Assembly: GCA_964609775.1 (NCBI GenBank)
Contig: CAZSSJ010000001.1
Span: 22,858-86,857, forward strand
Source of the DNA: an uncultured Gammaproteobacteria bacterium
GTDB lineage: Bacteria; Patescibacteriota; Microgenomatia; JAMCZE01
DNA length: 64,000 nucleotides
Direction of reading: 5' to 3'
Shown: piece by piece, positions 21,924 through 60,036 of the stretch
Layout of the letters: the number at the start of each line of letters is the position of its first letter
Numbering within the stretch: the stretch's first letter is position 1
Position numbers and translations under genes: made by a program
The notes under the pieces: generated by a model
What the model saw: the letters and a program-made list of their open reading frames with translations, nothing else
Told to the model about the DNA's origin: nothing
Database searches by the model: none

Positions 21924-21971
21924 GCTGGCTTGCCCTGAGCTTGTCGAAGGGTGGATTGTGAATTAACGAAA

Positions 21972-32993: not shown

Positions 32994-32997
32994 ATCT

Positions 32998-34257
32998 ATG
33001 ATAAATTTAACTATGCCACAAATGCCAGAGCGCTTTTCCAGGTCCGGAGTTATTCCGATTAAACTTGTTATTCTCCTTTTATTGCTGGCGCTGCCGCTGC
33101 TGCTTCTGGCGTTGAACTCGAAGACGAATCTTTTAGGCCTGGCTGGAGCTTCGGCCAACCTGGCAGTCTATCCGGCCACCCAAGCTAATGTGGTCGTCGG
33201 GGACCCCGTCTCTTTCACTGTTTCGCTGACGACCGGTGGGGCCAGCGTCCGGGGAGCGGACGTGATCATTAACTACGACAAGACAAAGTTGGCTCTGGTG
33301 GACATTACGCCCAATGACGCTTCCTTTAAAACCTTTGGCCCGCAAACCGCCGGGGGAGTCTTCGATGCTTCTCGGGTTATCAGTGTGGCCAGTCAAAGCG
33401 GCCGGATTGAGTTTAGCTCTTTGGCCTTTGATCCGTCGCAATCAGGTAACGGTCAGCAAGGCTTGACGGCGCTTTTTAACGGCACGACGACGCTAGTCAA
33501 TCTCAAGTTCCTGGCGCTCTCCGCCGGCAGCAATATTCCCCTGACTTTTGGCTACACCGCCAGCAGCACGACCGATTCGAATGTGGCTCTGGACGGCGGC
33601 CAGGACGTCTTGGGCTCGGTCACAAACGCCGCGATTACGATTGTCAATCCCACGGTCCAAGATAGCCAGGCTCCAACAACAGCGGTGACGACGCCAACGG
33701 CCGACCAAACAGTGGCCGGGACGGTGATCCTTGCCGCCACAGCCACAGACAACGTGGGGGTGACAAAAGTGGAGTTTGTCCTGGACGGAGCGGTCAGGGG
33801 TTCGGACACCACTTCTCCCTACACTCTTTCCTGGGACTCAAAGACGGTTTCGGACGGCAGCCACTCCGTCCTGACCAAAGCCTATGACGCGGCCGGCAAT
33901 GTGGGCACTTCGCCAGCTATTAGCTTTAAAGTGGTTAACACGGTTGTGAGCAAGACGATGAGAGTGAGCCAGATTGTTTATGAAGTCCGCGGCCAAAAGC
34001 TTGATGATGGGGTTCTGGTTGTCGATGCGGCCGGCAAGGGGCTGGGCGGAGCCCTGGTTTCCCGAACGGTGACTAACGAGGCCCAGACTCTGACCTATAA
34101 ACTCTCTTCCAAAACGGCGACTAACGGTTGGACCGGCTCAACCATCACCAAAAAAGCCGCCCCGGGGTGCTATTCGGAGAAAATCACCGCCGTCACTCTC
34201 TCCGGCTACACCTTTGATGGTGTTACTCCGCAAAACCAATATTGCACCAAGAGGTAG
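32998..34257 (+). CDS. Cohesin-domain protein with an Ig-like domain. N-terminal TM/signal anchor. The ORF is open from 32983.
   Basis: LAVYPATQANVVVGDPVSFTVSLTTGGASVRGADVIINYDKTKLALVDI (cohesin-type pattern); the Ig-like segment TATDNVGVTKVEF.LDGA...DT..PY is shared with the upstream dockerin protein. Confidence 0.6.
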   Translation: MINLTMPQMPERFSRSGVIPIKLVILLLLLALPLLLLALNSKTNLLGLAGASANLAVYPATQANVVVGDPVSFTVSLTTGGASVRGADVIINYDKTKLALVDITPNDASFKTFGPQTAGGVFDASRVISVASQSGRIEFSSLAFDPSQSGNGQQGLTALFNGTTTLVNLKFLALSAGSNIPLTFGYTASSTTDSNVALDGGQDVLGSVTNAAITIVNPTVQDSQAPTTAVTTPTADQTVAGTVILAATATDNVGVTKVEFVLDGAVRGSDTTSPYTLSWDSKTVSDGSHSVLTKAYDAAGNVGTSPAISFKVVNTVVSKTMRVSQIVYEVRGQKLDDGVLVVDAAGKGLGGALVSRTVTNEAQTLTYKLSSKTATNGWTGSTITKKAAPGCYSEKITAVTLSGYTFDGVTPQNQYCTKR

Positions 34258-34273
34258 AAAGTTAGCCTATGAT

Positions 34274-36073
34274 ATGAGGCAAGAGAGAGCCTTTAGAAAG
34301 AGATTGTTTTGGAGGCGGGGTTTGACTTCAGTTCTGGCGCCGGTGGCTCTTTTTTTGGTTTTGATTCTGGGAGTGGTGGCGATTAATTTCGGGCTGAATT
34401 CATCAACGAGTCCGGAGCCACGAGCCGACGGAGGGACAAATGTCGTTGTGACCGGAACAGTGCAGCGGTCGCCATGGCTGCGGCTGCGGAAACCGGACTA
34501 TCGGCTGGTCAAGACGGATAATGGCAAGGACTACTATTTGACCACGACCAGCACGGGAATTAATCTCCGGACCTATGAGGGGAAAAAAGTCGTTGTGACA
34601 GGGACGGAGACAACGACGGCTAAGTGGGGGCTGACGCTGTTTGTCAAGGACATTAAGGTGTTTGTGGCCCCGCCGCCACCATATCCGGCGCAGAAGAAGG
34701 TGGACACCTCAAAGACGGTGATGTATCAAGTGTGGTTGAATTATTACGCCCAGAATGTCTCCGAGGATCAGCCGTCGATGGTGGTGTTTGAGAATGCGGC
34801 CCGGAGGTTGCCGGACCTGGCGAAGATGGGCGTGACCACAATTCAGCTTTCGCCGGTGCACCCGTTTTTGTCAGGGACGACCATTGGGTCGCCATATGGT
34901 TCACGGGACTACTATGACGTCAATCCGGGTTATGCCGGGTTCACAAATCCACAAACCGATCCGGGAACGAAAAGTGAGCGGATCGCCGCCTTTAAAAAAT
35001 ATGTTGAGGCGGCCCACGGTCAGGGGATGAAGGTGATCATGGACTGTGTCTATCACAGCACCGATGCCCGCAATGTTCTGGTGGCGGCGTATCCGGAATA
35101 TTACAAACATAATGCCGACGGCCGTTTTGTCCAGAATCAATACGGGTTTTATGTTTTGGACTACGCTCAATCCGAGCTTGTCGACTATATGATTTCGATG
35201 GTGAAATACTGGAAACAGACGGTGGGAGTGGACGGGTGTCGGGCGGACGTGGCGACGATGGTGCCGCTTGCTTTCTGGGCAGCCTTAAATAACGAGATGA
35301 AAAAGATTGATCCCGGGTGGCTCATGATTGCGGAAACGACAGCAAATCTGGTTTCGTATAGCGGGCCGTACAGCGGTCCGGGATATAAGGGGGAAACGTA
35401 TGACAAGATCTATGGTTTTGACGGGATATATGGGGTGACTTATATGCTGGCTTCACGGGCGATTCTTAACGGAAGTCGCATGGCTGATGTCCTGGAGACG
35501 GCCTGGGAGTTTCCGCAAAACGGCACGGCAGCGGTTCCGGGAGGAATTTTTTACCGGTCGGTGGACAATCATGATCAGCGGCCAAGAGCAACGCTTCTGG
35601 CTGGAGGGAATGCCGGGATGGTGGCTTCGGTGGCGGTCAACTTGACGCTTGACGGGATTCCGTTTATTTTTAATGGCCAGGAGATCGGGGATGTGGCGCC
35701 GACGAGCATTGCGGTTCAAAGATTTATTTCCTGGAGTCATCCGCTTGCACCCCAGAATGGAGAGGCTTTTGAGAAACTGATTTCACTTCGACGAAATCGT
35801 CCGGCTTTAAACAGCGGGACGACAGTTTGGCTTGATAATTCAAATCCGGCAGGAGTTGTGTCGTATGTCAGGCAGAGCGGGAGTGACCGGGTGTTGGTGG
35901 TGGCGAATCTTTCGGGGACAGACTGGAGCGGAACGGTGAGCGGAACAACGGGAGCAAGCCTTAGTGGCCAGGGAAAAGATCTCATCTCCGGTCTGAGCGT
36001 GTCTTCGGCGGTTAACAACGTGATGACGCTTTCACTCCCGGCCTATTCTTATGTTGTTATCCAAATTCAGTAG
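34274..36073 (+). CDS. GH13 alpha-amylase-family glycoside hydrolase, membrane-anchored or secreted. The ORF is open from TTG at 34214; ATG at 34274 lies after the upstream stop.
   Basis: GH13 conserved regions: QLSPVHPF...GYAGF, KVIMDCVYHST, GVDGCRADVA (catalytic Asp), FNGQEIG, VDNHDQ. Confidence 0.8.
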   Translation: MRQERAFRKRLFWRRGLTSVLAPVALFLVLILGVVAINFGLNSSTSPEPRADGGTNVVVTGTVQRSPWLRLRKPDYRLVKTDNGKDYYLTTTSTGINLRTYEGKKVVVTGTETTTAKWGLTLFVKDIKVFVAPPPPYPAQKKVDTSKTVMYQVWLNYYAQNVSEDQPSMVVFENAARRLPDLAKMGVTTIQLSPVHPFLSGTTIGSPYGSRDYYDVNPGYAGFTNPQTDPGTKSERIAAFKKYVEAAHGQGMKVIMDCVYHSTDARNVLVAAYPEYYKHNADGRFVQNQYGFYVLDYAQSELVDYMISMVKYWKQTVGVDGCRADVATMVPLAFWAALNNEMKKIDPGWLMIAETTANLVSYSGPYSGPGYKGETYDKIYGFDGIYGVTYMLASRAILNGSRMADVLETAWEFPQNGTAAVPGGIFYRSVDNHDQRPRATLLAGGNAGMVASVAVNLTLDGIPFIFNGQEIGDVAPTSIAVQRFISWSHPLAPQNGEAFEKLISLRRNRPALNSGTTVWLDNSNPAGVVSYVRQSGSDRVLVVANLSGTDWSGTVSGTTGASLSGQGKDLISGLSVSSAVNNVMTLSLPAYSYVVIQIQ

Positions 36074-37736: not shown

Positions 37737-38414
37737 TTATTTTAGGATTTGGGGTCTTAAGCTTCGGGCGAGGGATTCATAGAATTTCTCCATGGCTTTT
37801 TGGTCAAAGGGGACGAGCATTTTGGGAAGATTCGTTATTTCCGCGGCCTTGAGGAAGCTTTGGGCCGTTTTAATAGTGTCTGTGGTGACGACGAATTTTT
37901 GGTCAGCACTGGTGAGGAGATCGGCTGCTGTCCAGTTTGTTTCTTTGATAATTAAGTAGAGGTCGACGTAATCTCGTTCACGGGCTTTGGTGCGGATCGT
38001 GTGGATCTTGTTGACGGCAATGTCGTAGAGGCTATCAATTTCGAGGCCGCGCCACCTGATTCCCGGTTTTAGACGGTTGAAGGAGTAGTGGTTAAAGTCG
38101 ACCTTGAAACGGCTGTTGTCAGGGTAGCGGAAGAAATATGTGTAGAAACCAAGGTCGTCATCGACGCTAACGTGACGGTATTCGAGGATACTTTGATTCC
38201 TTTTGATCCATTCAGTAACACGGTCGCCATTAAAGGAGCGATCGGTGAAGAAATCCAAATCGTAGGATTCCCGGTGGTGGAGGTACCAGCTGGCCAGACC
38301 GGTGCCGCCGCTTAAGTAGAAGTTATCGAGGAGATATTTTTCCTGAAGTACCAGGTCCAGAAATTGCTTCTGTCGAAGGCTAAGTCCTTCTCCTTGCGCC
38401 AGGGTTTGTTCCAT
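37737..38414 (-). CDS. AbiEii/AbiGii-like nucleotidyltransferase (type IV TA toxin family)
   Basis: FYLSGGTGLASWYLHHRESYDLDFF motif (GGTAL...HR.S.DLD). Confidence 0.7.
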   Translation of the reverse strand: MEQTLAQGEGLSLRQKQFLDLVLQEKYLLDNFYLSGGTGLASWYLHHRESYDLDFFTDRSFNGDRVTEWIKRNQSILEYRHVSVDDDLGFYTYFFRYPDNSRFKVDFNHYSFNRLKPGIRWRGLEIDSLYDIAVNKIHTIRTKARERDYVDLYLIIKETNWTAADLLTSADQKFVVTTDTIKTAQSFLKAAEITNLPKMLVPFDQKAMEKFYESLARSLRPQILK

Positions 38415-49194: not shown

Positions 49195-50262
49195 TTATTT
49201 GAGAAGACTCTCTTGATAGAGAGGGCTTTCTACAACCTGCTTCCAGGCGGCAACAGCGTTTGGTGATGATTGGAGACGATAATCGCGGCCGGAACCATCC
49301 CTTGAGTTAAACCAGACAGCTACTTTAACCTTCGGGAGCTTTTCAGGGATCGTTGTGAGAAATCCCTGTTTTATCCAATTCGCCTGAGCCATCGGATCAT
49401 CGGGATTTGCCATTGCACCAACTTCCCAAAGAATCATCGGACGAGAAGAAAAGCCAGTAACAAAGTCATAGGTGGATTTGAACTCATCTTCGAGCGACCG
49501 CCAATTATTTTGAGCATTGCTGTAGCCGTCTAAGGCGACCCAGTCAACATAGTTGTCGCCGGGATAGAGCTCTTTAAAGATGCCTCCATACGTATTCAAG
49601 TTGTCATCGCTAAGGACACTGGCGCACCAAACAAACTGGACATTAGTGGCTTTTTCCCGGCGAAAAATGTCGACAATGTGCTTCCAGGCGGCGACAAAAT
49701 CTGCCGGATTGGTGTTGCCATTGACACTATAGCCCCACGGATACCAAGTGCCATCCATTTCGTGGAGAAAACGAAGAATGAAGGGATAATGGTAGGCGGC
49801 CGCGTCTTTGGCAAATTGAGTAATATATTGGTCATGTCGGCCGGAGGCAATTGCCTTCCAAGAATAATCTGTTTGGTTAATGGCTTGTTGCCGATCTGGA
49901 TAGGCCTCTATTGACCCTTTTGACGGACTCCAGGTTATTCCGGGCATAATACCCCGGGTTCGGAATTCATCGAGCATCGGAGGGTAAAATGGAATGTAGC
50001 TTCCGTCTAAGCGTTTCCACGTGGTTGGCTGCCAGGCAAAAGCGGGTTTTCTGCCAGCCTCTTTAATGTACCTGTCGATATTATCTCCCGAAGTATCTTT
50101 TTGGGGTTGATAGATTCCTAGGGCTATCCCCGAGGAAGGAATGATCGGAGACTGATCATTACGAAGTTCCGACAAATTGGGGGAGCGAAAAAGCCTCGGC
50201 AGCTGTGAAAGGACCAGAATACCGGCGACCGTGATTATGGCAACCAATAAGTATTTGTGCAT
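49195..50262 (-). CDS. Secreted glycoside hydrolase, GH26-like (beta-mannanase-type clan GH-A). The family assignment is tentative.
   Basis: Signal anchor; HEMDGTWYPWG and ILWEVGA glutamate-containing motifs; paralogous to residues about 530-880 of the adjacent 985-aa protein. Confidence 0.5.
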   Translation of the reverse strand: MHKYLLVAIITVAGILVLSQLPRLFRSPNLSELRNDQSPIIPSSGIALGIYQPQKDTSGDNIDRYIKEAGRKPAFAWQPTTWKRLDGSYIPFYPPMLDEFRTRGIMPGITWSPSKGSIEAYPDRQQAINQTDYSWKAIASGRHDQYITQFAKDAAAYHYPFILRFLHEMDGTWYPWGYSVNGNTNPADFVAAWKHIVDIFRREKATNVQFVWCASVLSDDNLNTYGGIFKELYPGDNYVDWVALDGYSNAQNNWRSLEDEFKSTYDFVTGFSSRPMILWEVGAMANPDDPMAQANWIKQGFLTTIPEKLPKVKVAVWFNSRDGSGRDYRLQSSPNAVAAWKQVVESPLYQESLLK

Positions 50263-50299
50263 GTTTTAGTTATTGAGTGTTTATATTAAAATAATTGGT

Positions 50300-53257
50300 T
50301 TAATTGACAAAGACGGTGATGGAGTTGGTGGCAGATTTACCTGAGGAGTCAGTGACCTTGGCGGTGACGAGGTATTGGCCGCTCGGGACGGATGAGCCGA
50401 GAGTGACAGAACAGGAGTAGGGAAAAGTGGTGTCGGTGCATTTCAGACTATCTTTAACATAGAACTCAACTTTGGTCACAGGAAGGCTGCTTTCAACCTG
50501 GGTAGTGGCAGTGGTGTTTTTCTTGACGAGACTGCCGTTTGTGGGCGAGTTGATCTTGATGGTCAGGATCGAAGCGGTCGGGTCGAGTGAGGTGGCGGGA
50601 CTTCTGGTTGGGCTTTCGGATGGAGGAGTTGGTGCGGGGTTTGATGAGAGCGCCACAACGGGAGTGGGAGCCGAGGCGGTGGGGGCGAGGGAGTTAAAAA
50701 GATTTCCTTGATAGAGAGGGCTGGCGACCACCTGTTTCCAGGCGTTAAGAGAATTTTGGGAAGAATCAACTGCATAGTTCACTGTTTTTCTGTCATTAAT
50801 GGAGTTGAACCAGTTGACCATCTTAACATCGGGAAATAGTTGCGGAATAGTAGTTAAAAATCCCTGGGTAATCCAGTTGGCTTTAGCCATCGAGTCTTTG
50901 GGATCTTCCGACGCTCCAACTTCATAAAAAGCCATCCGCCGGTGGGTAAAAGTTTTTAAGAATTGGTAAGCAGGTTGAAAGTCATCCTGAAGAGAACGCT
51001 TGGTCGATGCCGGATTGCTATAACCATCCAGAGCGATCCAATCAACATAGTCGTCTCCGGGATAAAGTTGCTTAAGAACGTCTTTGTATTGATCAATCCG
51101 GCTGGGAGTCAGGACACTGGCAGCCCAGCACCAGGCAAACTGGACATTAGTGGCTCCTTCTTTCCTGAAGATATCTACGACGTGTTTCCAGGCGGCAACA
51201 AAATCAGCGGGATTTGTGTTTCCATTGACTGAATATCCCCACGGGTACCAATTGCCATCCATTTCCGCAAACACTCGTACAATAAAAGGATAGTGATAGG
51301 CGGCAGCATCTTTGGCAACCTGGGTGATATACGCATCATGCATCCCTGAGTTGATTGCTTGCCAAGAAAAATCCGGCTGATTTTCATTCAGTGCCGATCC
51401 CTTTGATGCATCCCAGTTTAAGCCGGGCATAATTCCCCTTGTCCGGAACTGGTCCAGGAGACGAGGATCAAATTGCTGATAGGCGCCGGTATTGGGGTTC
51501 TGCCATTTAACCGAAAACCAGGCAAAAGCAGGCTTCCTGCCAACCTCTTTAGTGTATTGGTCTACGGCAGTGCCGTGACCGAAGGGGTCTGCGGCCGGTT
51601 GATAGACACCGAGGGATATGCCATTGGAGCCGGTTGGAGAGGGGCGGCACCAGCCTTCGGCTGGTTCGGGCAGAAGACAGGCGGGCTTGGAATCAAGGCA
51701 AGCGGGGCGGGGTTTACAAGTTGTTGGAGGTGGTGGGAGGGGATTTGTCTGTTGAGGTTCGACAAAGACGGGTGATTTGGTCAGTTGGATAGTATTGGTG
51801 CTGATAGTGCTTTCTTTGCCGGTCACATCGGTGACTTGGGCACCGGTGAAGGGCAGGGTGACGGTGGCATTATCGCTTTCAGACCAGAGAATGTAGATGT
51901 CCTTGCCATGATTAGAGAATTCATAGGCCCGGACATTGCTTCCCAAAGAAAGTTTTTGCTGGAAAGAACCGTCCGTGAGCTTATCTGAGATGACTTTAAA
52001 GGCGGCGGCGGCGGGGCGGGGGGTGCCGGAATTGTCAATTAAGCCGACGTGGGCTTCACTGATGGCGAAATCGGTCATGGTCCAGTAGACAAACCGGTCA
52101 ACTTTTCCAGCAAAGCCAATGACCATTTTCCGGACCAGTTCCCGGGCGTGCTCGTCTGGGTCGTAGCCCTTTCCCGGGGCGCCGCGCCAGCCGTACCAGG
52201 CTTCCCACCAGGAAATCGGCTTGTCGTCGCCGACGCCTTTAAGGCTGGTGTGCAGATATTCCAGGACTTTTTCCAGGTTCTGCCAGGGAGCGCCGTTGTG
52301 GATTTGGAGCTTGTCAATATATTTATGATTGGCAAAAATGTTGTTTTCCCAGGCAATGGTGTCCTGAACACCCGGGGCAGCGAGGGTTTGTTTAAGCTCG
52401 TCGATGGTATTAAAGTGAACTGTTTGGCCGGCTTTCTCCTGATGAGCGGTATAGGAGTTGGCGAAGTCGAGGGCTTCCTGGTTGCGGCCTTCGTTCACAA
52501 GCCAGTTGGCCGTTAAATAGCCCAGACCTTCATAGGACATGCCGGCGTCGGTGACGACGGCGTTGGGGTCGGCGGCGTGGACAGCTTTGGAGGCATTTTG
52601 CAACAGTTTGGTATAGTCTTCCCGGCTGGCGCCCCAATTGCCTGGCCAGTGAGCCTCGTTTTCGACGGAATAGTGGGTGATTTTGCCTTTATAGTGTTTG
52701 GTCACTTCGTAGACAAATTTATAGTAGTCGTCCCAGTTTTTTGGGGGCATGGAGTGATTGCCGGAGAGCTTGATGTCCGGCGGGAAGGGCTGAGTGGCCC
52801 AGGAGGCATTGGAAACAAGGTGGACCATGATTTCCTGGCCGCAACTTTCGTAGCTGTCGACCCAATTGTCAAACTGTTTCCAGACCCACTGATTACGGTT
52901 AACGGGTTGAATGCGGGCCCAGGAGAGGACGAGCCAGTTGACAGTCGAACCGTTGGTTGTGAGAGTTTCACAAAATTTGTCTTTTTGACTGCCGAGGGCT
53001 TGATCGATGGGGGCTCCAGTGCCTATCAGGAGGCCGGTCCTTGGCGGCTGGCTTTTGCCCACTCCGGGTTTAGTCGGAAAGATAGAGTTAGATCTAATAG
53101 CTTCCTCAACGTTTGAGGCGAGGTTTTTAGCTGCTTGGGTTATTTTAGTGACTTCCTGGCGGATCTGGGGACTTTGTTTGTAGGCAGTGAGACCCAGCAG
53201 GGTGGTGGCGGCAAGGATTATTGGTATGAAGATGAAGGCGAAGCCAGATTGTTTCAT
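50300..53257 (-). CDS. Large secreted multidomain glycoside hydrolase: N-terminal clan GH-A-like domain (VENEAH), Pro/Cys-rich linker, GH26-like domain, C-terminal Ig-like domain
   Basis: Signal anchor; NE(P/A) catalytic motif; AEMDGNWYPWG; C-terminal Big-like TKVEFYVKD... Confidence 0.55.
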   Translation of the reverse strand: MKQSGFAFIFIPIILAATTLLGLTAYKQSPQIRQEVTKITQAAKNLASNVEEAIRSNSIFPTKPGVGKSQPPRTGLLIGTGAPIDQALGSQKDKFCETLTTNGSTVNWLVLSWARIQPVNRNQWVWKQFDNWVDSYESCGQEIMVHLVSNASWATQPFPPDIKLSGNHSMPPKNWDDYYKFVYEVTKHYKGKITHYSVENEAHWPGNWGASREDYTKLLQNASKAVHAADPNAVVTDAGMSYEGLGYLTANWLVNEGRNQEALDFANSYTAHQEKAGQTVHFNTIDELKQTLAAPGVQDTIAWENNIFANHKYIDKLQIHNGAPWQNLEKVLEYLHTSLKGVGDDKPISWWEAWYGWRGAPGKGYDPDEHARELVRKMVIGFAGKVDRFVYWTMTDFAISEAHVGLIDNSGTPRPAAAAFKVISDKLTDGSFQQKLSLGSNVRAYEFSNHGKDIYILWSESDNATVTLPFTGAQVTDVTGKESTISTNTIQLTKSPVFVEPQQTNPLPPPPTTCKPRPACLDSKPACLLPEPAEGWCRPSPTGSNGISLGVYQPAADPFGHGTAVDQYTKEVGRKPAFAWFSVKWQNPNTGAYQQFDPRLLDQFRTRGIMPGLNWDASKGSALNENQPDFSWQAINSGMHDAYITQVAKDAAAYHYPFIVRVFAEMDGNWYPWGYSVNGNTNPADFVAAWKHVVDIFRKEGATNVQFAWCWAASVLTPSRIDQYKDVLKQLYPGDDYVDWIALDGYSNPASTKRSLQDDFQPAYQFLKTFTHRRMAFYEVGASEDPKDSMAKANWITQGFLTTIPQLFPDVKMVNWFNSINDRKTVNYAVDSSQNSLNAWKQVVASPLYQGNLFNSLAPTASAPTPVVALSSNPAPTPPSESPTRSPATSLDPTASILTIKINSPTNGSLVKKNTTATTQVESSLPVTKVEFYVKDSLKCTDTTFPYSCSVTLGSSVPSGQYLVTAKVTDSSGKSATNSITVFVN

Positions 53258-53301
53258 TGGGGATTAATGTCAGTCGAGTTTAAGGCAGAAAGCCTTGGTT
53301 G

Positions 53302-54333
53302 TCAATCTAAGATTTCTTCATCCGGTTCGTTAGCCTGTTTTTGGAGTAGAGGGAAATCGACAGTGGTGACGGCGTTTTTCGTGATGGGAAAGAGACCGGG
53401 ACTCACAGCAATGAAACCCTTGGGGGCCGAGGGGGACCACTTCTTCAAAAGTAGCTGCTTCCCACTTTTGCAGTAGAAATAGTTATTGCCAGTGGGGATT
53501 TTGACCGGGCGGTTGATGCCGGCACAGGTCTCAAATTTAAAGCCTGCCGGGATGAGCGGTTTTTTAATTTTATAGTCGCCGGTAGGAATTTCCCCAAAAG
53601 AGTAGTTTTCTTTGCCGGTGTTTTTTCCGGAATCAAGGATGGCGACTAGTGTGTTTGCGCCAGAGTCGACTTTAGTCAGAGTTAAACTGGCTTTTTTGAC
53701 CGAGGGTTCGACGGACTCGGCGTTTTTTCTGGCGTTGTGGTCGGTTTCGTCGTCATGCCAGATGTAGCCTGTCAGGGGGCCTTTGTCCGAGGCGGTTTGG
53801 ATTTTTTCGACCTGGATTTCGCAGGTGGAGTTGTTTTGAGCGGAGGGGTACCAGAGACTCGCGTTAGTGCCGCAGGTAGTTTTAGAGACCTTCCAATTCG
53901 AGGGAAGGTTAGTGCTGCCGGTTTCAGGGCAACTCGTACAAAGAGTGATTTGGTAGCCGGCGCCAGTTGTTGAGTCAGACCAGGTGGCACAGCCGGCGCC
54001 GTTGCAGGCGGAAGGACTGTAGGTTTGGACACGGCCTTTTTGGCAGACCGGGTCGGAGCAGGAGGCGTTGCAGCCGGTTGGACAAGCGGACATGAAGGTG
54101 GCGCGGACACTCACTTGGCTGGGGTATTTCTGGCCAGTGGCCCGGTCTTTTATTTTAATCGTCAGCGGGTTTCCGAAGGGTGGTGGCGGGGGGGGCGGGG
54201 GGGGGGGGGGGGGGCGGGCTTTGCTCGTAGCCGGAACAAAGCAAGGGAGCCGTGTTGCTGCAGTAGGAGTTGTAGTCCGAATAGGCAGGCTTGATGAGTC
54301 CGGAAGTGAGGCAAGTTTTGACGTCCGGAACAC
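53302..54333 (-). CDS. C-terminal Cys-rich/Ig-like portion of the metallopeptidase gene. It overlaps 54155..55594 out of frame across a poly-C tract and probably belongs to the same gene.
   Basis: N-terminus PPPPPPPPPPPP is encoded by the same G/C homopolymer that encodes the PPPPPPPAPP C-terminus of the upstream ORF. Confidence 0.5.
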   Translation of the reverse strand: MFRTSKLASLPDSSSLPIRTTTPTAATRLPCFVPATSKARPPPPPPPPPPPPFGNPLTIKIKDRATGQKYPSQVSVRATFMSACPTGCNASCSDPVCQKGRVQTYSPSACNGAGCATWSDSTTGAGYQITLCTSCPETGSTNLPSNWKVSKTTCGTNASLWYPSAQNNSTCEIQVEKIQTASDKGPLTGYIWHDDETDHNARKNAESVEPSVKKASLTLTKVDSGANTLVAILDSGKNTGKENYSFGEIPTGDYKIKKPLIPAGFKFETCAGINRPVKIPTGNNYFYCKSGKQLLLKKWSPSAPKGFIAVSPGLFPITKNAVTTVDFPLLQKQANEPDEEILD

Positions 54334-55594
54334 ACCAGTTGGTGGTCCAGACGTAAGAGGAATCTCCGATCATGGGAGTCCCCGAGGGAATTGGGGCGAA
54401 GAGATTGATGGCGCCACGCATGGCGGGCTCGTCAACGGGGTCAAGGTGATAACCGGATTCTGACCAGAGTGTCTCCATAATGCAGCTGCCAGAGGTGGAT
54501 TTGTAACGGTTGGTGTAGGTGCAGATGGTGTAGCAGTTTGTTCCGGGGATTCCTGACCATTTGCCACAAGCAGAAGAGGTATCACAGTTTGCGTGAATGT
54601 TTCGGTTGGGGTTGGTTTCAATTTTGTTGTAATCATATTCATCATTTAAGTTTCCGATGCCATGACCTAATTCATGATAGAGGGTAAGTCCGGGAAAAGG
54701 CAGATTTGATTGTGATCGTGACATGAGGGCATACTTGATTGGCGGATAATAGGACCAGCCAATCTTGTCGTCGATGCCTTCAAGAATAACAATGAAGTCG
54801 TAGTTGGTTTGGGAAGCGATGTTGTAGATTAAAGCACTGTCGCAATCAAGATTTTCAGCGTTATTAAAACTGTTACACAAGATTTGATCGTTGTGGATTT
54901 TCGCGAATCTGATTTTTGATCGATATTCGTTCCAAGGTGACTGAGCCAGGAGGAAGTTAGTCATACTGCTAACGTCCGCATCAAATAGGTCAAAGTCGGA
55001 ATAGCGGTCGCTTATAAAGGTAAGGTCAAGGTAACCGTCAGAGGAAAGACCCGACTGGGGAGCCGGAGTGTTAGATGACTTGACAACATAACTTTTTTTA
55101 AGGATTGCCGATTGAATCTTTAGGCTGTCTAAGACTTGGGTCTTTTTTGGCTGGCTATGGCGAATTTGGATTGTAGCGCCCGTTTGGTAAGGGAAAGAGA
55201 TTACCACTCGGGGCTCGGAAAAAATCTTATCCTGTCTATTGATTTGTTTTTTTTCAGAAGCGAAAGTTTCGATGGCGAGACTGTCAGTAAATTTAATGCT
55301 TGCTTTCCAGGTGGTTTTTCCGTTTAAAACTTGTTCGATTTCATCAGTTTCACTGTCAGTTTTTTGGTTTGGCAAGTAGGGGGTATAGCCATTGTTGGCG
55401 AGGGCTTTTTGAATGGAGATTTTGCCGGTGGTGGGGTTTTTGGTTAAGACGAGGATGAGGTTGGTGTCTGCTTTGAGGCCAGTAGCTTTGTCTTGGAGAC
55501 GGGTTTGTTGGGTGACAATAAATAGAGTTGCACCTAGGAGGGGGAGGAGGAGAAGGACGAGAGTGAGGCTGAGGGTGGCGGCACCTTTTTTCAT
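54155..55594 (-). CDS. Secreted zinc metallopeptidase (HEXXH; M64/IgA-peptidase-like)
   Basis: Signal peptide; LYHELGHGIGNLNDEYDY (HExxH...DEY); C-terminal poly-Pro. Confidence 0.6.
   Translation of the reverse strand: MKKGAATLSLTLVLLLLPLLGATLFIVTQQTRLQDKATGLKADTNLILVLTKNPTTGKISIQKALANNGYTPYLPNQKTDSETDEIEQVLNGKTTWKASIKFTDSLAIETFASEKKQINRQDKIFSEPRVVISFPYQTGATIQIRHSQPKKTQVLDSLKIQSAILKKSYVVKSSNTPAPQSGLSSDGYLDLTFISDRYSDFDLFDADVSSMTNFLLAQSPWNEYRSKIRFAKIHNDQILCNSFNNAENLDCDSALIYNIASQTNYDFIVILEGIDDKIGWSYYPPIKYALMSRSQSNLPFPGLTLYHELGHGIGNLNDEYDYNKIETNPNRNIHANCDTSSACGKWSGIPGTNCYTICTYTNRYKSTSGSCIMETLWSESGYHLDPVDEPAMRGAINLFAPIPSGTPMIGDSSYVWTTNWCVPDVKTCLTSGLIKPAYSDYNSYCSNTAPLLCSGYEQSPPPPPPPAPPATTLRKPADD
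54186..54222. repeat. About 37-nt G-rich homopolymeric tract (poly-C on the coding strand) at the junction between the two peptidase ORFs
   Basis: ggtggcggggggggcggggggggggggggggggcgggc. Confidence 0.9.
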
Positions 55595-55805
55595 GGGTAT
55601 AGTTATAGTATTTAGATTATTACTCCCACAAGGCCTGTCAAGGGTTCAGGATTGACAGTAAGATGGCCGACTAGTAAGATTAGACCGTATGAATGGTCGT
55701 GTTTTGCTTTTGGCTCTCCTTCAAAGCTCGCAATAGCGGGGAAGGTTTGTTGGCAAAACACATCTTAATCCCGCAAAAGGCGGGATTTTTTGTTAGGATT
55801 AGCCT

Positions 55806-56408
55806 ATGGATCAGGAAAATTGGGGGAATCAGGGAGATCAGTTTAAGAAAGCGGGCTACCAGTATCTGTTGGCTTGGAAAATAACTGTTCCCATTTATGA
55901 TTACACTGTCATTTTTTGCAGGAAGTATCGCAGATTGCTCTCTTCTGAGCGGACTTATGACCAGATGGTGCAGGCGGCCAGAAGCGGGACACAAAATGTT
56001 CCGGAGGGAAATCAACAGGCAAGTCTTGAAGGCTACATCAAATTGACTGGTGTTAACAAAGCCTCATTGGAGGAACTATTGAGGGATTTCCTGGCGTTTG
56101 CCAGACAGAATCAGATTCCAATTTGGTCAAAGGAAAGGTGTGTCAGGGAAATTAGGGAAATTGGGGAGATCTGGGGGATTCTTAAAAATAATAAAACGCT
56201 CCCTGACGATCCCAATTTCCCGAATTTCCCTGACAAATTGGAGATCGGCGTCAATTTAATGATAACATTGGTCCATCAAGCAATTTTTCTTCAAGGGAAA
56301 TTAAAGGAGTCTTTGGAGAAAAAGTTCATCGAGGAAGGTGGTTTTAGAGAGAACTTGTTTAGAAAGAGAATGGACTGGCGAAGGAGGCAGAATGGACAGG
56401 AAGTATGA
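55806..56408 (+). CDS. Four-helix-bundle protein (TIGR02436-like, '23S rRNA intervening sequence protein' family). Tentative.
   Basis: YDQMVQAARSGTQNVPEG resembles the ..Q..RAa.Si..NIAEG signature; 200 aa. Confidence 0.4.
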   Translation: MDQENWGNQGDQFKKAGYQYLLAWKITVPIYDYTVIFCRKYRRLLSSERTYDQMVQAARSGTQNVPEGNQQASLEGYIKLTGVNKASLEELLRDFLAFARQNQIPIWSKERCVREIREIGEIWGILKNNKTLPDDPNFPNFPDKLEIGVNLMITLVHQAIFLQGKLKESLEKKFIEEGGFRENLFRKRMDWRRRQNGQEV

Positions 56409-58977
56409 ACCGGCAGAGATAGAGAAGAAGTGGCCCTCCTTCGCCAAGGCTTCGGACGGGCAAGCAGGACGTTATAACCATCGGGAGATTGAGCATAAGT
56501 GGCAGGAGGTGTGGGAAAAAGAGAAACTATATCTAACTCCAAAACCTGATGCCGAGCATCCGAAGAGATACATTTTGGATATGTTTCCCTACCCGTCGGG
56601 GGCGGGACTTCATGTTGGGCATATGGAAGGCTACGTGGCCACGGATGTTATTGTCAGATACCTGCGGATGAAGGGGCTTTCGGTTCTTCACCCGATGGGC
56701 TGGGACGCGTTTGGCCTGCCGGCCGAGAATTATGCGATTAAAGAAGGAATTGCCCCTGATAAGTCGACGCACGAGAATATCAAGAATTTTAAGTATCAGC
56801 TTCAACTTTTGGGACTGTCTTATGATTGGTCCAAAGAAATAGATACATCTAGCCCGAAGTATTACAAATGGACACAGTGGTTGTTTACGCTGCTGTTTAA
56901 AAAGGGCTTAGCCTATAAAAAGAAAGCGCCGGCGAATTGGTGCCCCAAGGACGAAACGGTGCTGGCCAACGAGCAGGTGGTTGATGGGAAATGCGAACGG
57001 TGCGGGACGGCGGTAGTGCAAAAGGAATTGGAGCAGTGGTTTTTTAAGATTACGGATTATGCGGATAAGCTGATTTCCGGTCTGGACAAAGTCGATTGGC
57101 CGGAATCGACCAAGACGCAGCAGGTTAACTGGATTGGGAAGAAAGAGGGCATCGAAATTACTTATGAGGTGGTAGGTGTTCCTGACGAAATTACTGTTTT
57201 TACGACTGCTCCGGTTAACTTTGGGATGACCTTTTTGGTTTTAGGACCAGAACACCATTTCGTCCAGAAAATTATTTCTGGTGAAATTAAGATTTCTTCT
57301 GAGACTCAAAAAGAAGTTAAGGATTATGTTGAGGCGGCGGGTAAAAAGACAGAACTGGAGAGGATCGCTGCGGGTAGGGAGAAGACAGGGGTGTTTACCA
57401 CTTTATATGCAATTAACTCCATTAATGGTAAAAAAGTGCCGATTTATGTGACTGATTTTGTTTTAGGGCATGTGGGTACTGGTGCGGTTCAAGGTTGCCC
57501 GGCGCATGATCTTAAAGACTTTCAGTTTGCAAAGAAGTTTAACTTGCCGATCGTTAGAGTTGTTGAGGGTCCCGATGGTGATGCTGGACCGGTAGAGAGA
57601 GAAGATCAGATTATTGAAAAGGGAATGCGGGGTACATTTATTAATTCAGAGTTTTTGAACGGCTTGAGTTTTGAGGGAGGACTGCAAAAGACGATGGACT
57701 ATTTTGTTGAAAAAGGCGTTGGTAGGAGGGTGGTGACCTATCACATTCGGGATTGGCTGATTTCGAGGCAGAGATATTGGGGGTGCCCGATCCCGATGGT
57801 GTTTTGCGAAAAAGACAGCTGGCAGCCTGTTCCTGATTCAGAACTACCTATTTTGTTACCAACTGATATAGATTTTCGACCGACCGGGGAATCACCGATT
57901 GCCAGATCAGGGTCTTTCCAAAAAGGGGTAAGGTGCCCGGTTTGCGGGGAGGCAGCCAAGCGGGAGGTAGACACCATGGACACTTACGTCGACTCCTCAT
58001 GGTATTTTTACCGCTTTGTAGATCCGGATAATAACAAAAAATTCGCTTCGAAGAAGGCTCTCGAAACATGGATGCCGGTGGACATTTATGTTGGCGGCGG
58101 GCATGTGGTCCAGCACCTGCTGTTTGCCCGATTCTTCCACAAAGTTCTCGTCGATGCAGGATATATTAAGGGTGATGGCGCTGGTGAGCCTTTCCTAAAG
58201 CTTAGAGCGCCGGGATGGATTTTGGGCCCGGACTCTCGCAAGATGAGCAAGCGCTGGGCGAACGTTATCACTCCGGAGGAAGTGGTTGCCAAACATGGAG
58301 CGGACACGATGCGGATGTATGAGATGTTTATGGCGCCGTTTGAAGTCGATAAACCGTGGAATGTCAACTCGGTGGCTGGGGTGCAGCGCTTTTTGAGCCG
58401 AATTTACGGTTTGTTTGAAAGATCTTATCAGTTGAAGGACGCAGTTGCTGGCGAAGCAATGGCTCGTGAGATTAATAAATTGGTTTTTAAGGTCGGCAAA
58501 GATATTGAGGGTTTCAAGTTCAATACGGCAGTGGCTGCCATGATGGAGTTTGTGAATCAGGTACAGGCAGGATTGAAGACGAAGGAGCAGGGTGAAGGAA
58601 GCTACACCTGGAGAGTGGTTTGGGAGAAGTTTCTGACCGTTTTGGCGCCGTTTGCGCCGCATTTGGCGGAGGAGCTGTGGTCCCACTTCGCCAAGGCTTC
58701 GCGGGACAAGCATGGATATGTTTCTGTCCATCAGCAGTCGTGGCCGGAGGTTGATGAGAAATATCTGGGCCAGGAAAGCAGGACGATCGTGGTGTCGATT
58801 AATGGCAAGGCGAGAGCGACATTGAAAATGAGCAATGGGCAATCCTCAATGAGCAATAGCCAGGAGGAGGTTGAGAAGTTGGCGAGAGGAGATCAGAATG
58901 TGGCGAAGTGGCTGGAAGGGAAAGAGGTTAAGAAAGTGGTCTACGTACCAGGCAAGATTGTCAACTTCGTCGTTTAA
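56392..58977 (+). CDS. leuS: Leucyl-tRNA synthetase. The ORF is open from 56338; ATG at 56392 is preceded by GGAGG.
   Basis: HVGHMEGY (HIGH) and KMSKRWAN (KMSKS) motifs; LeuRS-type editing and anticodon-binding regions; 862 aa. Confidence 0.9.
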   Translation: MDRKYEPAEIEKKWPSFAKASDGQAGRYNHREIEHKWQEVWEKEKLYLTPKPDAEHPKRYILDMFPYPSGAGLHVGHMEGYVATDVIVRYLRMKGLSVLHPMGWDAFGLPAENYAIKEGIAPDKSTHENIKNFKYQLQLLGLSYDWSKEIDTSSPKYYKWTQWLFTLLFKKGLAYKKKAPANWCPKDETVLANEQVVDGKCERCGTAVVQKELEQWFFKITDYADKLISGLDKVDWPESTKTQQVNWIGKKEGIEITYEVVGVPDEITVFTTAPVNFGMTFLVLGPEHHFVQKIISGEIKISSETQKEVKDYVEAAGKKTELERIAAGREKTGVFTTLYAINSINGKKVPIYVTDFVLGHVGTGAVQGCPAHDLKDFQFAKKFNLPIVRVVEGPDGDAGPVEREDQIIEKGMRGTFINSEFLNGLSFEGGLQKTMDYFVEKGVGRRVVTYHIRDWLISRQRYWGCPIPMVFCEKDSWQPVPDSELPILLPTDIDFRPTGESPIARSGSFQKGVRCPVCGEAAKREVDTMDTYVDSSWYFYRFVDPDNNKKFASKKALETWMPVDIYVGGGHVVQHLLFARFFHKVLVDAGYIKGDGAGEPFLKLRAPGWILGPDSRKMSKRWANVITPEEVVAKHGADTMRMYEMFMAPFEVDKPWNVNSVAGVQRFLSRIYGLFERSYQLKDAVAGEAMAREINKLVFKVGKDIEGFKFNTAVAAMMEFVNQVQAGLKTKEQGEGSYTWRVVWEKFLTVLAPFAPHLAEELWSHFAKASRDKHGYVSVHQQSWPEVDEKYLGQESRTIVVSINGKARATLKMSNGQSSMSNSQEEVEKLARGDQNVAKWLEGKEVKKVVYVPGKIVNFVV

Positions 58978-59026
58978 CCGTTTTTATCTGTGTAAAATGA
59001 ATTCAGAAGATAATGAGTTAAGATCT

Positions 59027-59344
59027 TTATCCCTTAGGTTTTATTTTGGGCTTCAGATTTGTATCTAAGTTGAGCTTTGAGAGAATTTCGTTTATGCCTT
59101 CGTCTCCTGGATGAAAATGTTTCCAACCATCATCTCGAGTGTATCCTCTCTCAGACCCGGTTCCGCGGCTTGCGAGTCTGATATAGAATACCGTTTCACT
59201 GTTGTCGTATAAAGTTAAACTGCCAGACCAGATTCCATCGCCACCGGCAAAAGCACGACTAGGATCAAGAGCAATCATATCTGCGTGGTTTAAAGAAACA
59301 GTTCTCACGATAGTTGGACGATCTTTTTGGTCTGGATCTTTCAT
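59027..59344 (-). CDS. Small ORFan (105 aa) behind GA-leader copy h
   Basis: ATG abuts ...TTGACAAAAGAAGC(AG)5AATAGGCGAA. Confidence 0.45.
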   Translation of the reverse strand: MKDPDQKDRPTIVRTVSLNHADMIALDPSRAFAGGDGIWSGSLTLYDNSETVFYIRLASRGTGSERGYTRDDGWKHFHPGDEGINEILSKLNLDTNLKPKIKPKG

Positions 59345-59400
59345 TTCGCCTATTCTCTCTCTCTGCTTCTTTTGTCAAGCCCAGCTTGACAAAACTAGCC
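59345..59400. promoter_or_regulatory. GA-leader copy h ((CT)5) plus the palindrome TTGTCAAGCccaGCTTGACAA, between divergent genes
   Basis: Read directly; near-identical to copy a over about 60 nt. Confidence 0.7.
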
Positions 59401-59410
59401 CTGGCGTTAT

Positions 59411-59788
59411 TTGTCAAGTCCGGGCGGGCTGGAGATGGAGTGGCTGGAGATGGAGAGTAAATGCAATATTGACAAAGCGTACGGTTTGACGTACGATTGT
59501 GGTATGAATACGACGACTTTACCCCAAAATTTGACCGTGAGTCAGGCTCGTGCGAATCTTTATGATTTGATTGAAGAAGTGGGTTCGAAGTTGCGTCGAT
59601 TTGTCATTTCTCACAAGGGAAGGCCGACGGCGGTGGTGATGCCTGTGGAGGATTTGGAAAGTTGGGACGAAACGTTGGAGATTATGGCGAACAAGAAGTT
59701 GATGAGGTCTATTAAAAAGGCTCAAAGGGAATATGGGCGCGGTGAGGCAATTAGTTTTGAGGAAGTCAAGAAAAAATTGGGTATATGA
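59411..59788 (+). CDS. Phd/YefM-family antitoxin (the real start may be the internal ATG near 59503)
   Basis: LTVSQARANLYDLIEEV...RFVISHKGRPTAVVMPVEDLESWDETLEI. Confidence 0.7.
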   Translation: MSSPGGLEMEWLEMESKCNIDKAYGLTYDCGMNTTTLPQNLTVSQARANLYDLIEEVGSKLRRFVISHKGRPTAVVMPVEDLESWDETLEIMANKKLMRSIKKAQREYGRGEAISFEEVKKKLGI

Positions 59789-60036
59789 GACTTCAGTTTT
59801 CAAAAGATGCCCTAAAACAACTGGAAAAGATATCCCGAAACGAGGCTAAAAAGATTACCAGGAAACTGGAACAACTCGAAACTGAGCCCCTCGTTGGCAA
59901 GAAACTGGCTGGGGAGCTAGCCGATCAGTTTTCACTGCGAGCCTGGCCTTACAGAATCATTTATCAGGTTTATCCGAAAGCACAGACTGTGTTGATAATA
60001 CACATTGAGCATCGGCAGGGAGTTTACAAAAATTGA
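59785..60036 (+). CDS. RelE/ParE-family toxin
   Basis: ...LRAWPYRIIYQV....VLIIHIEHRQGVY; 4-nt overlap with the upstream antitoxin. Confidence 0.7.
   Translation: MRLQFSKDALKQLEKISRNEAKKITRKLEQLETEPLVGKKLAGELADQFSLRAWPYRIIYQVYPKAQTVLIIHIEHRQGVYKN

What the first reader, a model, noticed from the sequence alone, without database searches (positions are those of the whole stretch)
53302..55594. Metallopeptidase gene split by a ~37-nt poly-G/C tract encoding a poly-Pro linker: phase variation or assembly error
ORF 54155-55594 (HELGHGIGNLNDEY) ends …SPPPPPPPAPPATTLRKPADD*. ORF 53302-54333 starts …SKARPPPPPPPPPPPPF. Both Pro runs are encoded by the same homopolymeric tract (54186-54222), in two different frames. 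A 1-nt length change in the tract would fuse them into one protein of about 780 aa: protease plus a Cys-rich/Ig-like C-terminal domain. Long G/C homopolymers are classic slipped-strand mispairing switches and also classic sequencing artefacts.
Basis: seen in the sequence. Interest (0 to 1): 0.5.

Follow-up and report, generated by a model that had tools for sequence, protein, structure and literature searches.

The report
Assembly join error splits peptidase gene
The "split" metallopeptidase is one ordinary 760-residue gene in every other assembly of this genome; here, two contig ends were most likely joined end to end inside a very G/C-rich proline-linker stretch, which added 10 bases and broke the reading frame.

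Summary
The two ORFs and the shared G/C tract are there as described. The tract is G18 plus G8 with C interruptions, not a pure 37-nt homopolymer. Deleting one base gives a 763-aa protein.

At least 14 contigs of the same genome from other assemblies carry an intact gene. They are identical to the window over about 30 kb compared. Most encode 760 aa, and there the 10-proline linker uses mixed codons (CCG CCC CCA CCG CCT CCC CCG CCA CCA CCC) with no homopolymer. Orthologs at 38-41% identity are also fused end to end, with a Pro/Thr linker at the same spot.

The window differs from those contigs only inside the tract: two interrupting bases read as C, plus 10 extra C. Many other assemblies break or go chimeric exactly here. 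The window sequence equals the blunt concatenation of two contig ends seen in two other assemblies (…CCCG+C10 | C8-G-C8-G…). On the normal allele these ends overlap by exactly 10 nt. A "-12 nt allele" is explained the same way.

Verdict: scaffolding and sequencing artefact at a GGC-dense, G-quadruplex-type tract (about 0.8). Real phase variation is not excluded without reads (about 0.12). The gene is an M64-like secreted zinc peptidase with a Cys-rich, Ig-like C-terminal module. Low interest.

The parts
53302..55594 (-). One gene for a membrane-anchored or secreted M64-like zinc metallopeptidase with a C-terminal Cys-rich/Ig-like module. It is 760 aa in other assemblies and is interrupted here by a frameshift in the linker-coding tract.
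   Evidence: Both halves are 100% identical in protein sequence to the 760-aa P0002 (OGG19390.1, Candidatus Gottesmanbacteria). 13 contigs encode that exact 760-aa protein. Orthologs P0007 and P0008 align end to end.
54155..55594 (-). Upstream ORF of 479 aa. It is genuine coding sequence down to the tract. The last ~13 residues (APPATTLRKPADD*) are an out-of-frame reading of the linker and the start of the C-terminal module.
   Evidence: residues 1-459 are identical to P0002.
55511..55579 (-). N-terminal hydrophobic segment (ATLSLTLVLLLLPLLGATLFIVT), a signal peptide or membrane anchor.
   Evidence: Read directly from the sequence. It is modelled as a long helix, residues 3-40. A hydrophobic N-terminal stretch is also present in the relatives aligned.
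54662..54676 (-). HELGH (HExxH) zinc-binding and catalytic motif, residues 307-311.
   Evidence: The motif region H-E-x-x-H-x-x-G-x-L-x-D-E-Y is conserved in the peptidase-bearing relatives.
54635..54646 (-). NDEY, the conserved D-E-Y following the HExxH motif (residues 317-320).
54185..54219 (.). G/C-only tract (+ strand GGCG8CG18CGGGC) that encodes the interdomain poly-proline linker. It corresponds to a 10-nt shorter mixed-codon sequence in other assemblies.
   Evidence: It is the most G+C-rich 33-nt stretch in the window, and it matches the canonical G-quadruplex motif on the + strand in both versions.
54197..54214 (.). G18 run, with the inferred end-to-end contig junction between 54205 and 54204.
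   Evidence: The end of contig L013 (…CCCG+C10) concatenated with the start of contig L021 (C8GC8GCCACCACCC…) reproduces window 52705-55704 exactly.
53302..54177 (-). C-terminal module of 291 aa starting at FGNPLTIKIK. It has a Cys-rich part (12 Cys) followed by an SdrD-B/CnaB-like Ig-fold region from about 53775 downward.
   Evidence: SdrD_B in 2 of 8 relatives, E 7e-7; weak fold matches to Gram-positive pilins. The same module follows other N-terminal domains in P0020, P0025 and P0036.

Best explanation
This is a single gene. It encodes a membrane-anchored or secreted M64-like zinc metallopeptidase joined by a poly-proline linker to a Cys-rich, Ig-like C-terminal module. In the organism the linker is most likely encoded by about 33 nt of mixed proline codons, as in the other assemblies. 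That stretch is nearly pure G/C, dense in GGC, and fits a G-quadruplex motif on the + strand. Short-read sequencing degrades in such sequence, and interrupting bases tend to be called as the preceding base. Assemblers therefore stop inside it. In this record, a left contig ending …CCCG+C10 and a right contig starting C8-G-C8-G-CCACCACCC… were placed end to end instead of being overlapped by their true 10 nt. That produced a G18 run on the + strand, 10 extra bases, a frameshift and two apparent ORFs. Shown here: the fused architecture, the localisation of every difference to the tract, the contig breaks, and the exact concatenation identity. Inferred: the read-level miscalling and the scaffolding step.
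For: (1) Sister assemblies encode one protein: 760 aa on 13 contigs, plus 756-aa and 762-aa versions. The window's two halves are 100% identical to the 760-aa protein. (2) In those contigs the linker reads AGC CCG CCC CCA CCG CCT CCC CCG CCA CCA CCC, with no run longer than C5. Other poly-Pro runs in the window also use mixed codons, and CCG rather than CCC is the preferred Pro codon. (3) Over window 50302-59908 and 18199-39320, every difference between the window and the MFJK01000007.1 and ERZ27254752 contigs lies within 54180-54225. (4) Assemblies fail at the tract. Six contigs start or end inside it (L013, L021-L025). Two contigs have unrelated heads joined at it (L005, L006), and L007 has one joined just 3' of it, at window 54163. 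(5) L013-end plus L021-start reproduces the window exactly over 3000 nt. On the normal allele those two ends overlap by 10 nt, which is the size of the insertion. They disagree at one overlap position (C versus G), which would stop an assembler from merging them by overlap. (6) The '-12 nt allele' (L004/L008) equals '…CAAAG' plus the head of contig L023. This shows the same mechanism with a small gap instead of an overlap. [quoted passage not shown] That matches A/G/T read as C. (8) Orthologs at 38-41% identity are fused, with a P/T-rich linker at the same place. The linker has low model confidence, as expected of a flexible tether.
Against: No reads could be inspected. Long C runs appear in at least three other assemblies besides the window: L010/L019 with C17 in frame, L013 with at least C10, and L021 with C8-G-C8. 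At least L021 comes from the 2011 Rifle time series. A real poly-C allele in that population would also give breaks and differing lengths. L013 and L021 come from assemblies other than the one that produced the window, so the exact concatenation could be a coincidence, roughly 1 in 10-20, if a real C18 run happened to break at complementary points. The A-to-C and T-to-C changes are synonymous (CCA and CCT to CCC) and could be real SNPs. I do not know which sample or pipeline produced the window's record.
Confidence: 0.8

Rival explanations
1. Real slippage-prone allele (phase variation in the broad sense). In the 2011 aquifer population, the mixed proline codons mutated (CCA to CCC) into a C run long enough to slip. 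The run then expanded and absorbed neighbouring bases. Cells with in-frame lengths make the full protein. Cells with out-of-frame lengths make only the peptidase module, without the Ig-like C-terminal module.
For: Homopolymer-like versions recur in several assemblies: window C18-G-C8, L010 C17-T-C5 (in frame, 762 aa), L013 at least C10, L021 C8-G-C8. The tract is the only variable site in about 30 kb of otherwise identical sequence, as expected for a hypermutable site. K-mer assemblers normally need reads that span a run shorter than k.
Against: The allele on 13 contigs has no run longer than C5, so there is no conserved repeat tract. The variants differ by substitutions plus +6, +10 or -12 nt, not by unit steps. 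The +10 and -12 versions are exactly reproduced by joining observed contig ends. With a real C18, contigs entering from either side should carry nearly the whole run, not C10 and C8. There is no other long homopolymer in 64 kb. The tract lies in an interdomain linker rather than near the 5' end. No paper in the held library links homopolymeric phase variation with the Candidate Phyla Radiation.
Confidence: 0.12
2. Fixed, real frameshift. In this strain the gene is a pseudogene, or it makes a truncated peptidase lacking the C-terminal module.
For: The sequence as given has the frameshift. The truncated product would retain the whole catalytic domain.
Against: The downstream 291 codons are 100% identical to the intact gene, with no further decay. 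The same points as above argue for an artefactual origin of the +10 nt.
Confidence: 0.04
3. The frameshift is real but is corrected during expression, by a +1 ribosomal slip of tRNA-Pro on CCC-C or by RNA polymerase slippage on the C18 run.
For: Established knowledge: CCC-C is a known +1 slippery site for tRNA-Pro, and long homopolymers provoke transcriptional slippage. The required shift is +1.
Against: No conservation of a slippery site: orthologs and sister assemblies are simply in frame. No stimulatory structure was detected near the tract. The mechanism is unnecessary if the tract is an artefact.
Confidence: 0.02
4. Two genuinely separate genes: a peptidase and an independent Cys-rich/Ig-like protein.
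For: Gene callers on split or truncated assemblies called a 270-aa or 263-aa downstream protein.
Against: Those start codons lie inside the conserved module. The closest orthologs are fused. The module is always preceded by a P/T-rich linker and an N-terminal domain in relatives. The 343-aa ORF's first ~50 residues are out-of-frame peptidase sequence.
Confidence: 0.01

Closest known systems
Local scaffolding or join errors of short-read metagenome assemblies at low-complexity, GGC-rich sequence (described for the Rifle genome sets in PMC5079060; Illumina sequence-specific errors in PMC3141275)
   Same: The differences are confined to a few tens of bases. Contigs end in the stretch. The sequence is explained by abutting two contig ends. 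Interrupting bases are replaced by the preceding base. The gene is intact in other assemblies.
   Different: Not verified at read level here. The resulting G18 run mimics a contingency-locus homopolymer.
Homopolymeric-tract phase variation (contingency loci of Neisseria, Campylobacter, Helicobacter, Haemophilus)
   Same: A long G/C run lies inside a coding sequence for a surface or secreted protein, and a 1-nt change switches the frame.
   Different: The tract is absent from other assemblies of the same genome. It lies in an interdomain linker rather than near the 5' end. The variants are not unit-length changes. There are no companion tracts.
Peptidase family M64 (IgA peptidase of Thomasclavelia ramosa; Bacteroides BF3526 and BACOVA_00663)
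   Same: It has an HExxH…DEY motif and an N-terminal beta domain plus metallopeptidase fold. The best fold matches are 4df9/9qdi/3p1v at E about 1e-9. Pfam M64 matches 5 of 8 family members.
   Different: This protein scores below Pfam's threshold (17.8 versus 26 bits). Identity to solved structures is only 14-16%. It has a long low-confidence, Cys-containing stretch after the motif and a different C-terminal module. The substrate is unknown.
SdrD B-like / CnaB-type Ig-fold domains of Gram-positive surface proteins
   Same: The C-terminal region shows the G-x-V/I-W/F-x-D…G-x-Y pattern. SdrD_B matches two relatives. Fold matches to pilins are weak.
   Different: There is no Pfam match for this protein itself. 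It is preceded by a 12-Cys region with no recognised family.

Membership tests
Assembly or scaffolding artefact | Other assemblies of the same genome carry an uninterrupted gene. | tested here: met
   13 contigs encode the exact 760-aa protein. 756-aa and 762-aa versions also exist.
Assembly or scaffolding artefact | Differences from other assemblies are confined to the suspect stretch. | tested here: met
   All differences lie within 54180-54225 over about 30 kb compared.
Assembly or scaffolding artefact | The sequence is reproducible as a join of contig ends, with the insertion size equal to the true overlap. | tested here: met
   L013-end plus L021-start equals the window over 3000 nt. The overlap on the normal allele is 10 nt, matching the 10-nt insertion.
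Assembly or scaffolding artefact | No reads support the junction. | not testable with these tools
   No read data were available.
Phase-variable contingency locus (slipped-strand mispairing) | An uninterrupted simple repeat in the coding sequence or promoter. | tested here: inconclusive
   G18 is present in this record but absent from the common allele, whose longest run is C5.
Phase-variable contingency locus (slipped-strand mispairing) | Alleles differ only by the number of repeat units. | tested here: not met
   The variants combine base substitutions with +6, +10 or -12 nt.
Phase-variable contingency locus (slipped-strand mispairing) | Length heterogeneity among molecules of one sample. 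| not testable with these tools
   This needs raw reads or long reads.
Phase-variable contingency locus (slipped-strand mispairing) | Several such tracts per genome. | tested here: not met
   No other homopolymer longer than 9 nt in the 64 kb.
Peptidase M64 | A match to Pfam PF09471 above the gathering score. | tested here: not met
   17.8 bits against a cut-off of 26 for this protein. 5 of 8 relatives match, best E 1.6e-14.
Peptidase M64 | HExxH zinc motif followed by a conserved DEY. | tested here: met
   HELGHGIGNLNDEY at residues 307-320, with the pattern conserved in the peptidase-bearing relatives.
Peptidase M64 | The fold of solved family members. | tested here: met
   Foldseek probability 1.0 and E 1e-9 to 4df9, 9qdi and 3p1v, with weaker matches to T. 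ramosa IgA peptidase. The model is of moderate quality (pLDDT 69.9).
Peptidase M64 | Proteolytic activity. | not testable with these tools
   This requires an experiment.

The most novel reading that the evidence does not exclude
The long C run is real in the 2011 Rifle population of this Gottesmanbacteria-type (Candidate Phyla Radiation) bacterium. A synonymous CCA-to-CCC change turned a mixed-codon proline linker into a slippage-prone homopolymer. That homopolymer now toggles whether a secreted M64-like peptidase carries its Ig-like C-terminal module, giving domain-level phase variation in an episymbiotic ultra-small bacterium.
Probability: 0.12. Interest if true: 0.5.

Novelty: not a real feature. 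Interest (0 to 1): 0.1.

Why it matters
Mainly as a caution. A G18 run that looks like a textbook contingency locus can be produced by abutting two contig ends inside a GGC-rich proline-linker stretch. The public record then carries two truncated 'hypothetical proteins' instead of one 760-aa secreted peptidase. The correction gives the right gene model: an M64-like peptidase with a Cys-rich/Ig-like module, sitting in a cluster of large secreted glycoside hydrolases. If the tract were real after all, it would be the first case I could find of homopolymer-driven switching in a Candidate Phyla Radiation bacterium.

Tried and rejected
(1) Two word-indexed protein searches, with the fused protein and with the N-terminal part alone, returned only the protein's own cluster. 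Distant relatives came only from the exhaustive HMMER search.

(2) Scans of JGI metagenome contigs and GTDB genome contigs found nothing, neither for both flanks with a variable gap nor for the left flank alone. The first pattern (gap 10-40) would also have missed the window's own 41-nt version.

(3) Looking up the 479-aa product (P0006) and P0001 found no contig on record.

(4) NCBIfam and a sequence search of the PDB gave no match.

(5) Folding the tract and its flanks as single-stranded DNA gave nothing beyond shuffled controls. A short inverted repeat, GCTTTG…CAAAGC, lies just 5' of the tract.

(6) For a while I favoured a real poly-C allele, because several assemblies show long C runs and k-mer assemblers need spanning reads. 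I dropped this as the leading view after the concatenation test. That test showed the +10 and -12 versions are exact joins of observed contig ends, and that the contigs entering the tract carry only C10 and C8, not the full run.

(7) Programmed frameshifting and two separate genes were considered and rejected, because orthologs and sister assemblies are plainly in frame.

Full report
**Observation.** On the minus strand, ORF 54155-55594 (479 aa) contains HELGHGIGNLNDEY and ends …CSGYEQSPPPPPPPAPPATTLRKPADD*. ORF 53302-54333 (343 aa) contains …SKARPPPPPPPPPPPPFGNPLTIKIK…. Both proline runs are read from the same stretch in two frames, and the downstream ORF is in frame +1.

On the + strand the stretch reads GG C G8 C G18 C GGG. 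The G/C-only span is 54185-54219, and the longest pure run is G18 at 54197-54214. It is the only homopolymer above 9 nt in the window and the most G+C-rich 33-mer. Removing one C gives a 763-aa protein.

**The same gene elsewhere.** A protein search returned one cluster. Its members include a 760-aa protein, OGG19390.1 from Candidatus Gottesmanbacteria (P0002). They also include a 756-aa form, the 479-aa product of this window, and 270-aa and 263-aa downstream fragments. The 760-aa protein is encoded on 13 contigs from ENA, NCBI and Logan assemblies. Both halves of the window's gene are 100% identical to it.

In those contigs the linker is AGC CCG CCC CCA CCG CCT CCC CCG CCA CCA CCC TTC. That is ten prolines in mixed codons, with no run longer than C5. 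The window has the same sequence with two interrupting bases read as C and ten more C. Other poly-Pro runs in the window also use mixed codons, and CCG is the preferred Pro codon.

**Localisation of the differences.** I compared window 50302-59908 with 16 loci and window 18199-39320 with eight more. Against the MFJK01000007.1 and ERZ27254752 contigs, the window is identical everywhere except inside 54180-54225.

**Assemblers fail at this spot.**
- Contig L013 ends after …AAAGCCCG+C10.
- L021 (run SRR1658343, BioProject PRJNA268031, the Rifle aquifer metagenome of Burstein et al. 2016, six time points) starts with C8-G-C8-G-CCACCACCC.
- L022 to L025 start at four other positions within the normal tract.
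- L005 and L006 carry unrelated heads joined at the tract.
- LCPD01000006.1 (L007) has 461 unrelated bases joined just 3' of it, at window 54163.
- Two scaffolds carry further versions: -12 nt (756 aa; L004/L008) and CCCG-C17-T-C5 (+6 nt, 762 aa; L010/L019).

**The decisive test.** Placing the end of L013 directly against the start of L021 reproduces the window exactly over 3000 nt (window 52705-55704). The junction falls between 54205 and 54204, inside the G18 run. On the normal allele these two ends overlap by 10 positions, so an end-to-end join adds exactly the 10 nt observed.

Within that overlap the left end reads C where the right end reads G. At least one of the two is therefore a miscall or variant. 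This mismatch also explains why the ends would not be merged by overlap.

The -12 version is likewise '…CAAAG' followed exactly by the head of contig L023. If a real C18 run existed, contigs entering from either side should carry nearly the whole run, not C10 and C8.

**Plausible technical cause.** The methods paper for these Rifle genome sets reports HiSeq 2000 2x150 reads and IDBA-UD assembly. [quoted passage not shown]

Nakamura et al. showed that GGC motifs trigger direction-specific dephasing on Illumina instruments. [quoted passage not shown] The tract has several GGC motifs on the + strand and fits the canonical G-quadruplex motif in both versions. Reading A, G or T as C between C runs is the expected error. 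This step is inferred, not shown.

**Distant relatives.** An exhaustive HMMER search found 411 relatives. The two closest, P0007 (762 aa, 41% identity) and P0008 (768 aa, 38%), align from end to end. They have a Pro/Thr-rich linker at the same position (…CSGYQYKDSPPPTTTPTPAP…).

Many relatives share only the peptidase part. P0020, P0025 and P0036 carry the C-terminal module behind other N-terminal domains, again after a P-rich linker. The fused architecture is therefore the norm for the orthologs, and the C-terminal module is a reusable unit.

**What the protein is.**
- It starts with an N-terminal hydrophobic helix, a signal peptide or membrane anchor.
- A beta-rich domain follows, then a metallopeptidase domain with HELGH…NDEY (residues 307-320).
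- Pfam M64 is below threshold for this protein (17.8 versus 26 bits) but matches 5 of 8 family members (best E 1.6e-14).
- The AlphaFold model is moderate (pLDDT 69.9). The linker residues 461-470 score below 50.
- The best matches among solved structures are Bacteroides BF3526 (4df9, 9qdi) and BACOVA_00663 (3p1v) at E about 1e-9, followed by the Thomasclavelia ramosa IgA peptidase.
- The C-terminal 291 residues hold 12 cysteines and then an SdrD-B/CnaB-like Ig-fold region. SdrD_B matches two relatives, and fold matches to pilins are weak.
- The gene sits next to two GH26 enzymes and near other large secreted carbohydrate-active proteins.

I file it as M64-like. I do not claim strict family membership.

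**Rival readings.** A real slippage-prone poly-C allele in the 2011 population cannot be excluded without reads. Long C runs recur in several assemblies, and a hypermutable site would also be the only variable position and would also break assemblies.

Several points argue against it. The common allele has no repeat tract. The variants are not unit-length changes. Two of the three variant versions, including the window's own, are exact joins of observed contig ends. There are no companion tracts. The tract lies in an interdomain linker. I give this reading about 0.12.

A fixed pseudogene (0.04), expression-level recoding (0.02) and two separate genes (0.01) are less likely. The downstream part shows no decay, and all relatives are simply in frame.

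**Verdict.** The split is most likely not a biological feature (confidence about 0.8). The correct gene model is one 760-aa M64-like peptidase spanning 53302-55594, with a 10-proline linker. Interest is low. The value lies in correcting the gene model and in showing how a contig join can mimic a contingency locus.

Noticed in passing
window 1-64000: GC skew on the + strand is strongly positive almost throughout (0.1 to 0.38 per 2-kb bin), both where the large genes lie on the + strand (5946-28067) and where they lie on the - strand (49195-55594). It drops to near zero only around 30-34 kb and 38-40 kb. This is unusually strong for a bacterial chromosome arm.
   Followed up: no
window 5946-21923 (+) and 21951-28067 (+): A giant 5325-aa ORF carries Hint/intein-type Pfam hits and faint to weak MerR/HTH-type hits. 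It is followed by a 2038-aa ORF with DUF2341, Laminin_G_3 and Toxin_R_bind_N domains. The giant ORF also contains internal repeats at 82-86% identity (around 9700-9950, 15980-16080, 17600-17960 and about 19800-20200).
   Followed up: no
window 23452, 23488-23499, 25968-26080: Other assemblies of the same genome disagree with the window in the G-rich, glycine-coding part of the 2038-aa gene. LCPD01000006.1 has a 28-nt tandem duplication and lacks 111 nt, which splits the gene in three. The SAMN03202994 scaffold has a 12-nt deletion between GCGGA repeats. The window itself agrees with MFJK01000007.1 here.
   Followed up: partly
window 50544-50602: In the Ser/Pro/Thr-rich linker of the GH26 gene (50300-53257, -), LCPD01000006.1 lacks 57 nt (964 aa against 985 aa), and contig L005 ends at 50602. 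This is a second low-complexity linker where assemblies break.
   Followed up: partly
window 54177-54189 and 53199-53211: A 13-nt repeat, CCGCCACCACCCT (coding strand), is shared by the 3' end of the linker tract and the signal-peptide region of the next gene. The chimeric head of contig L005 uses it.
   Followed up: partly
L014 (ERZ27254846 k141_2334324), contig end at window ~54390: The contig ends in AGATCGGAA, which I recognise as the start of the Illumina adapter. This suggests untrimmed adapter in that public assembly.
   Followed up: no
window 29619-36073 and 49195-53257: The peptidase lies in a neighbourhood of large secreted carbohydrate-active proteins: a Pel9A-like beta-helix protein with a weak dockerin hit and Big_7, a Big_7 protein, an alpha-amylase, and two GH26 enzymes.
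   Followed up: no
window 37737-38414 (-); about 59435-59900 (+): An AbiEii-family gene, and a PhdYeFM antitoxin / ParE toxin pair downstream of leuS.
   Followed up: no
proteins P0020, P0025, P0036: The Cys-rich plus SdrD-B-like C-terminal module occurs behind unrelated N-terminal domains in other proteins, each time after a Pro-rich linker. It behaves as a shuffled module of unknown function.
   Followed up: partly
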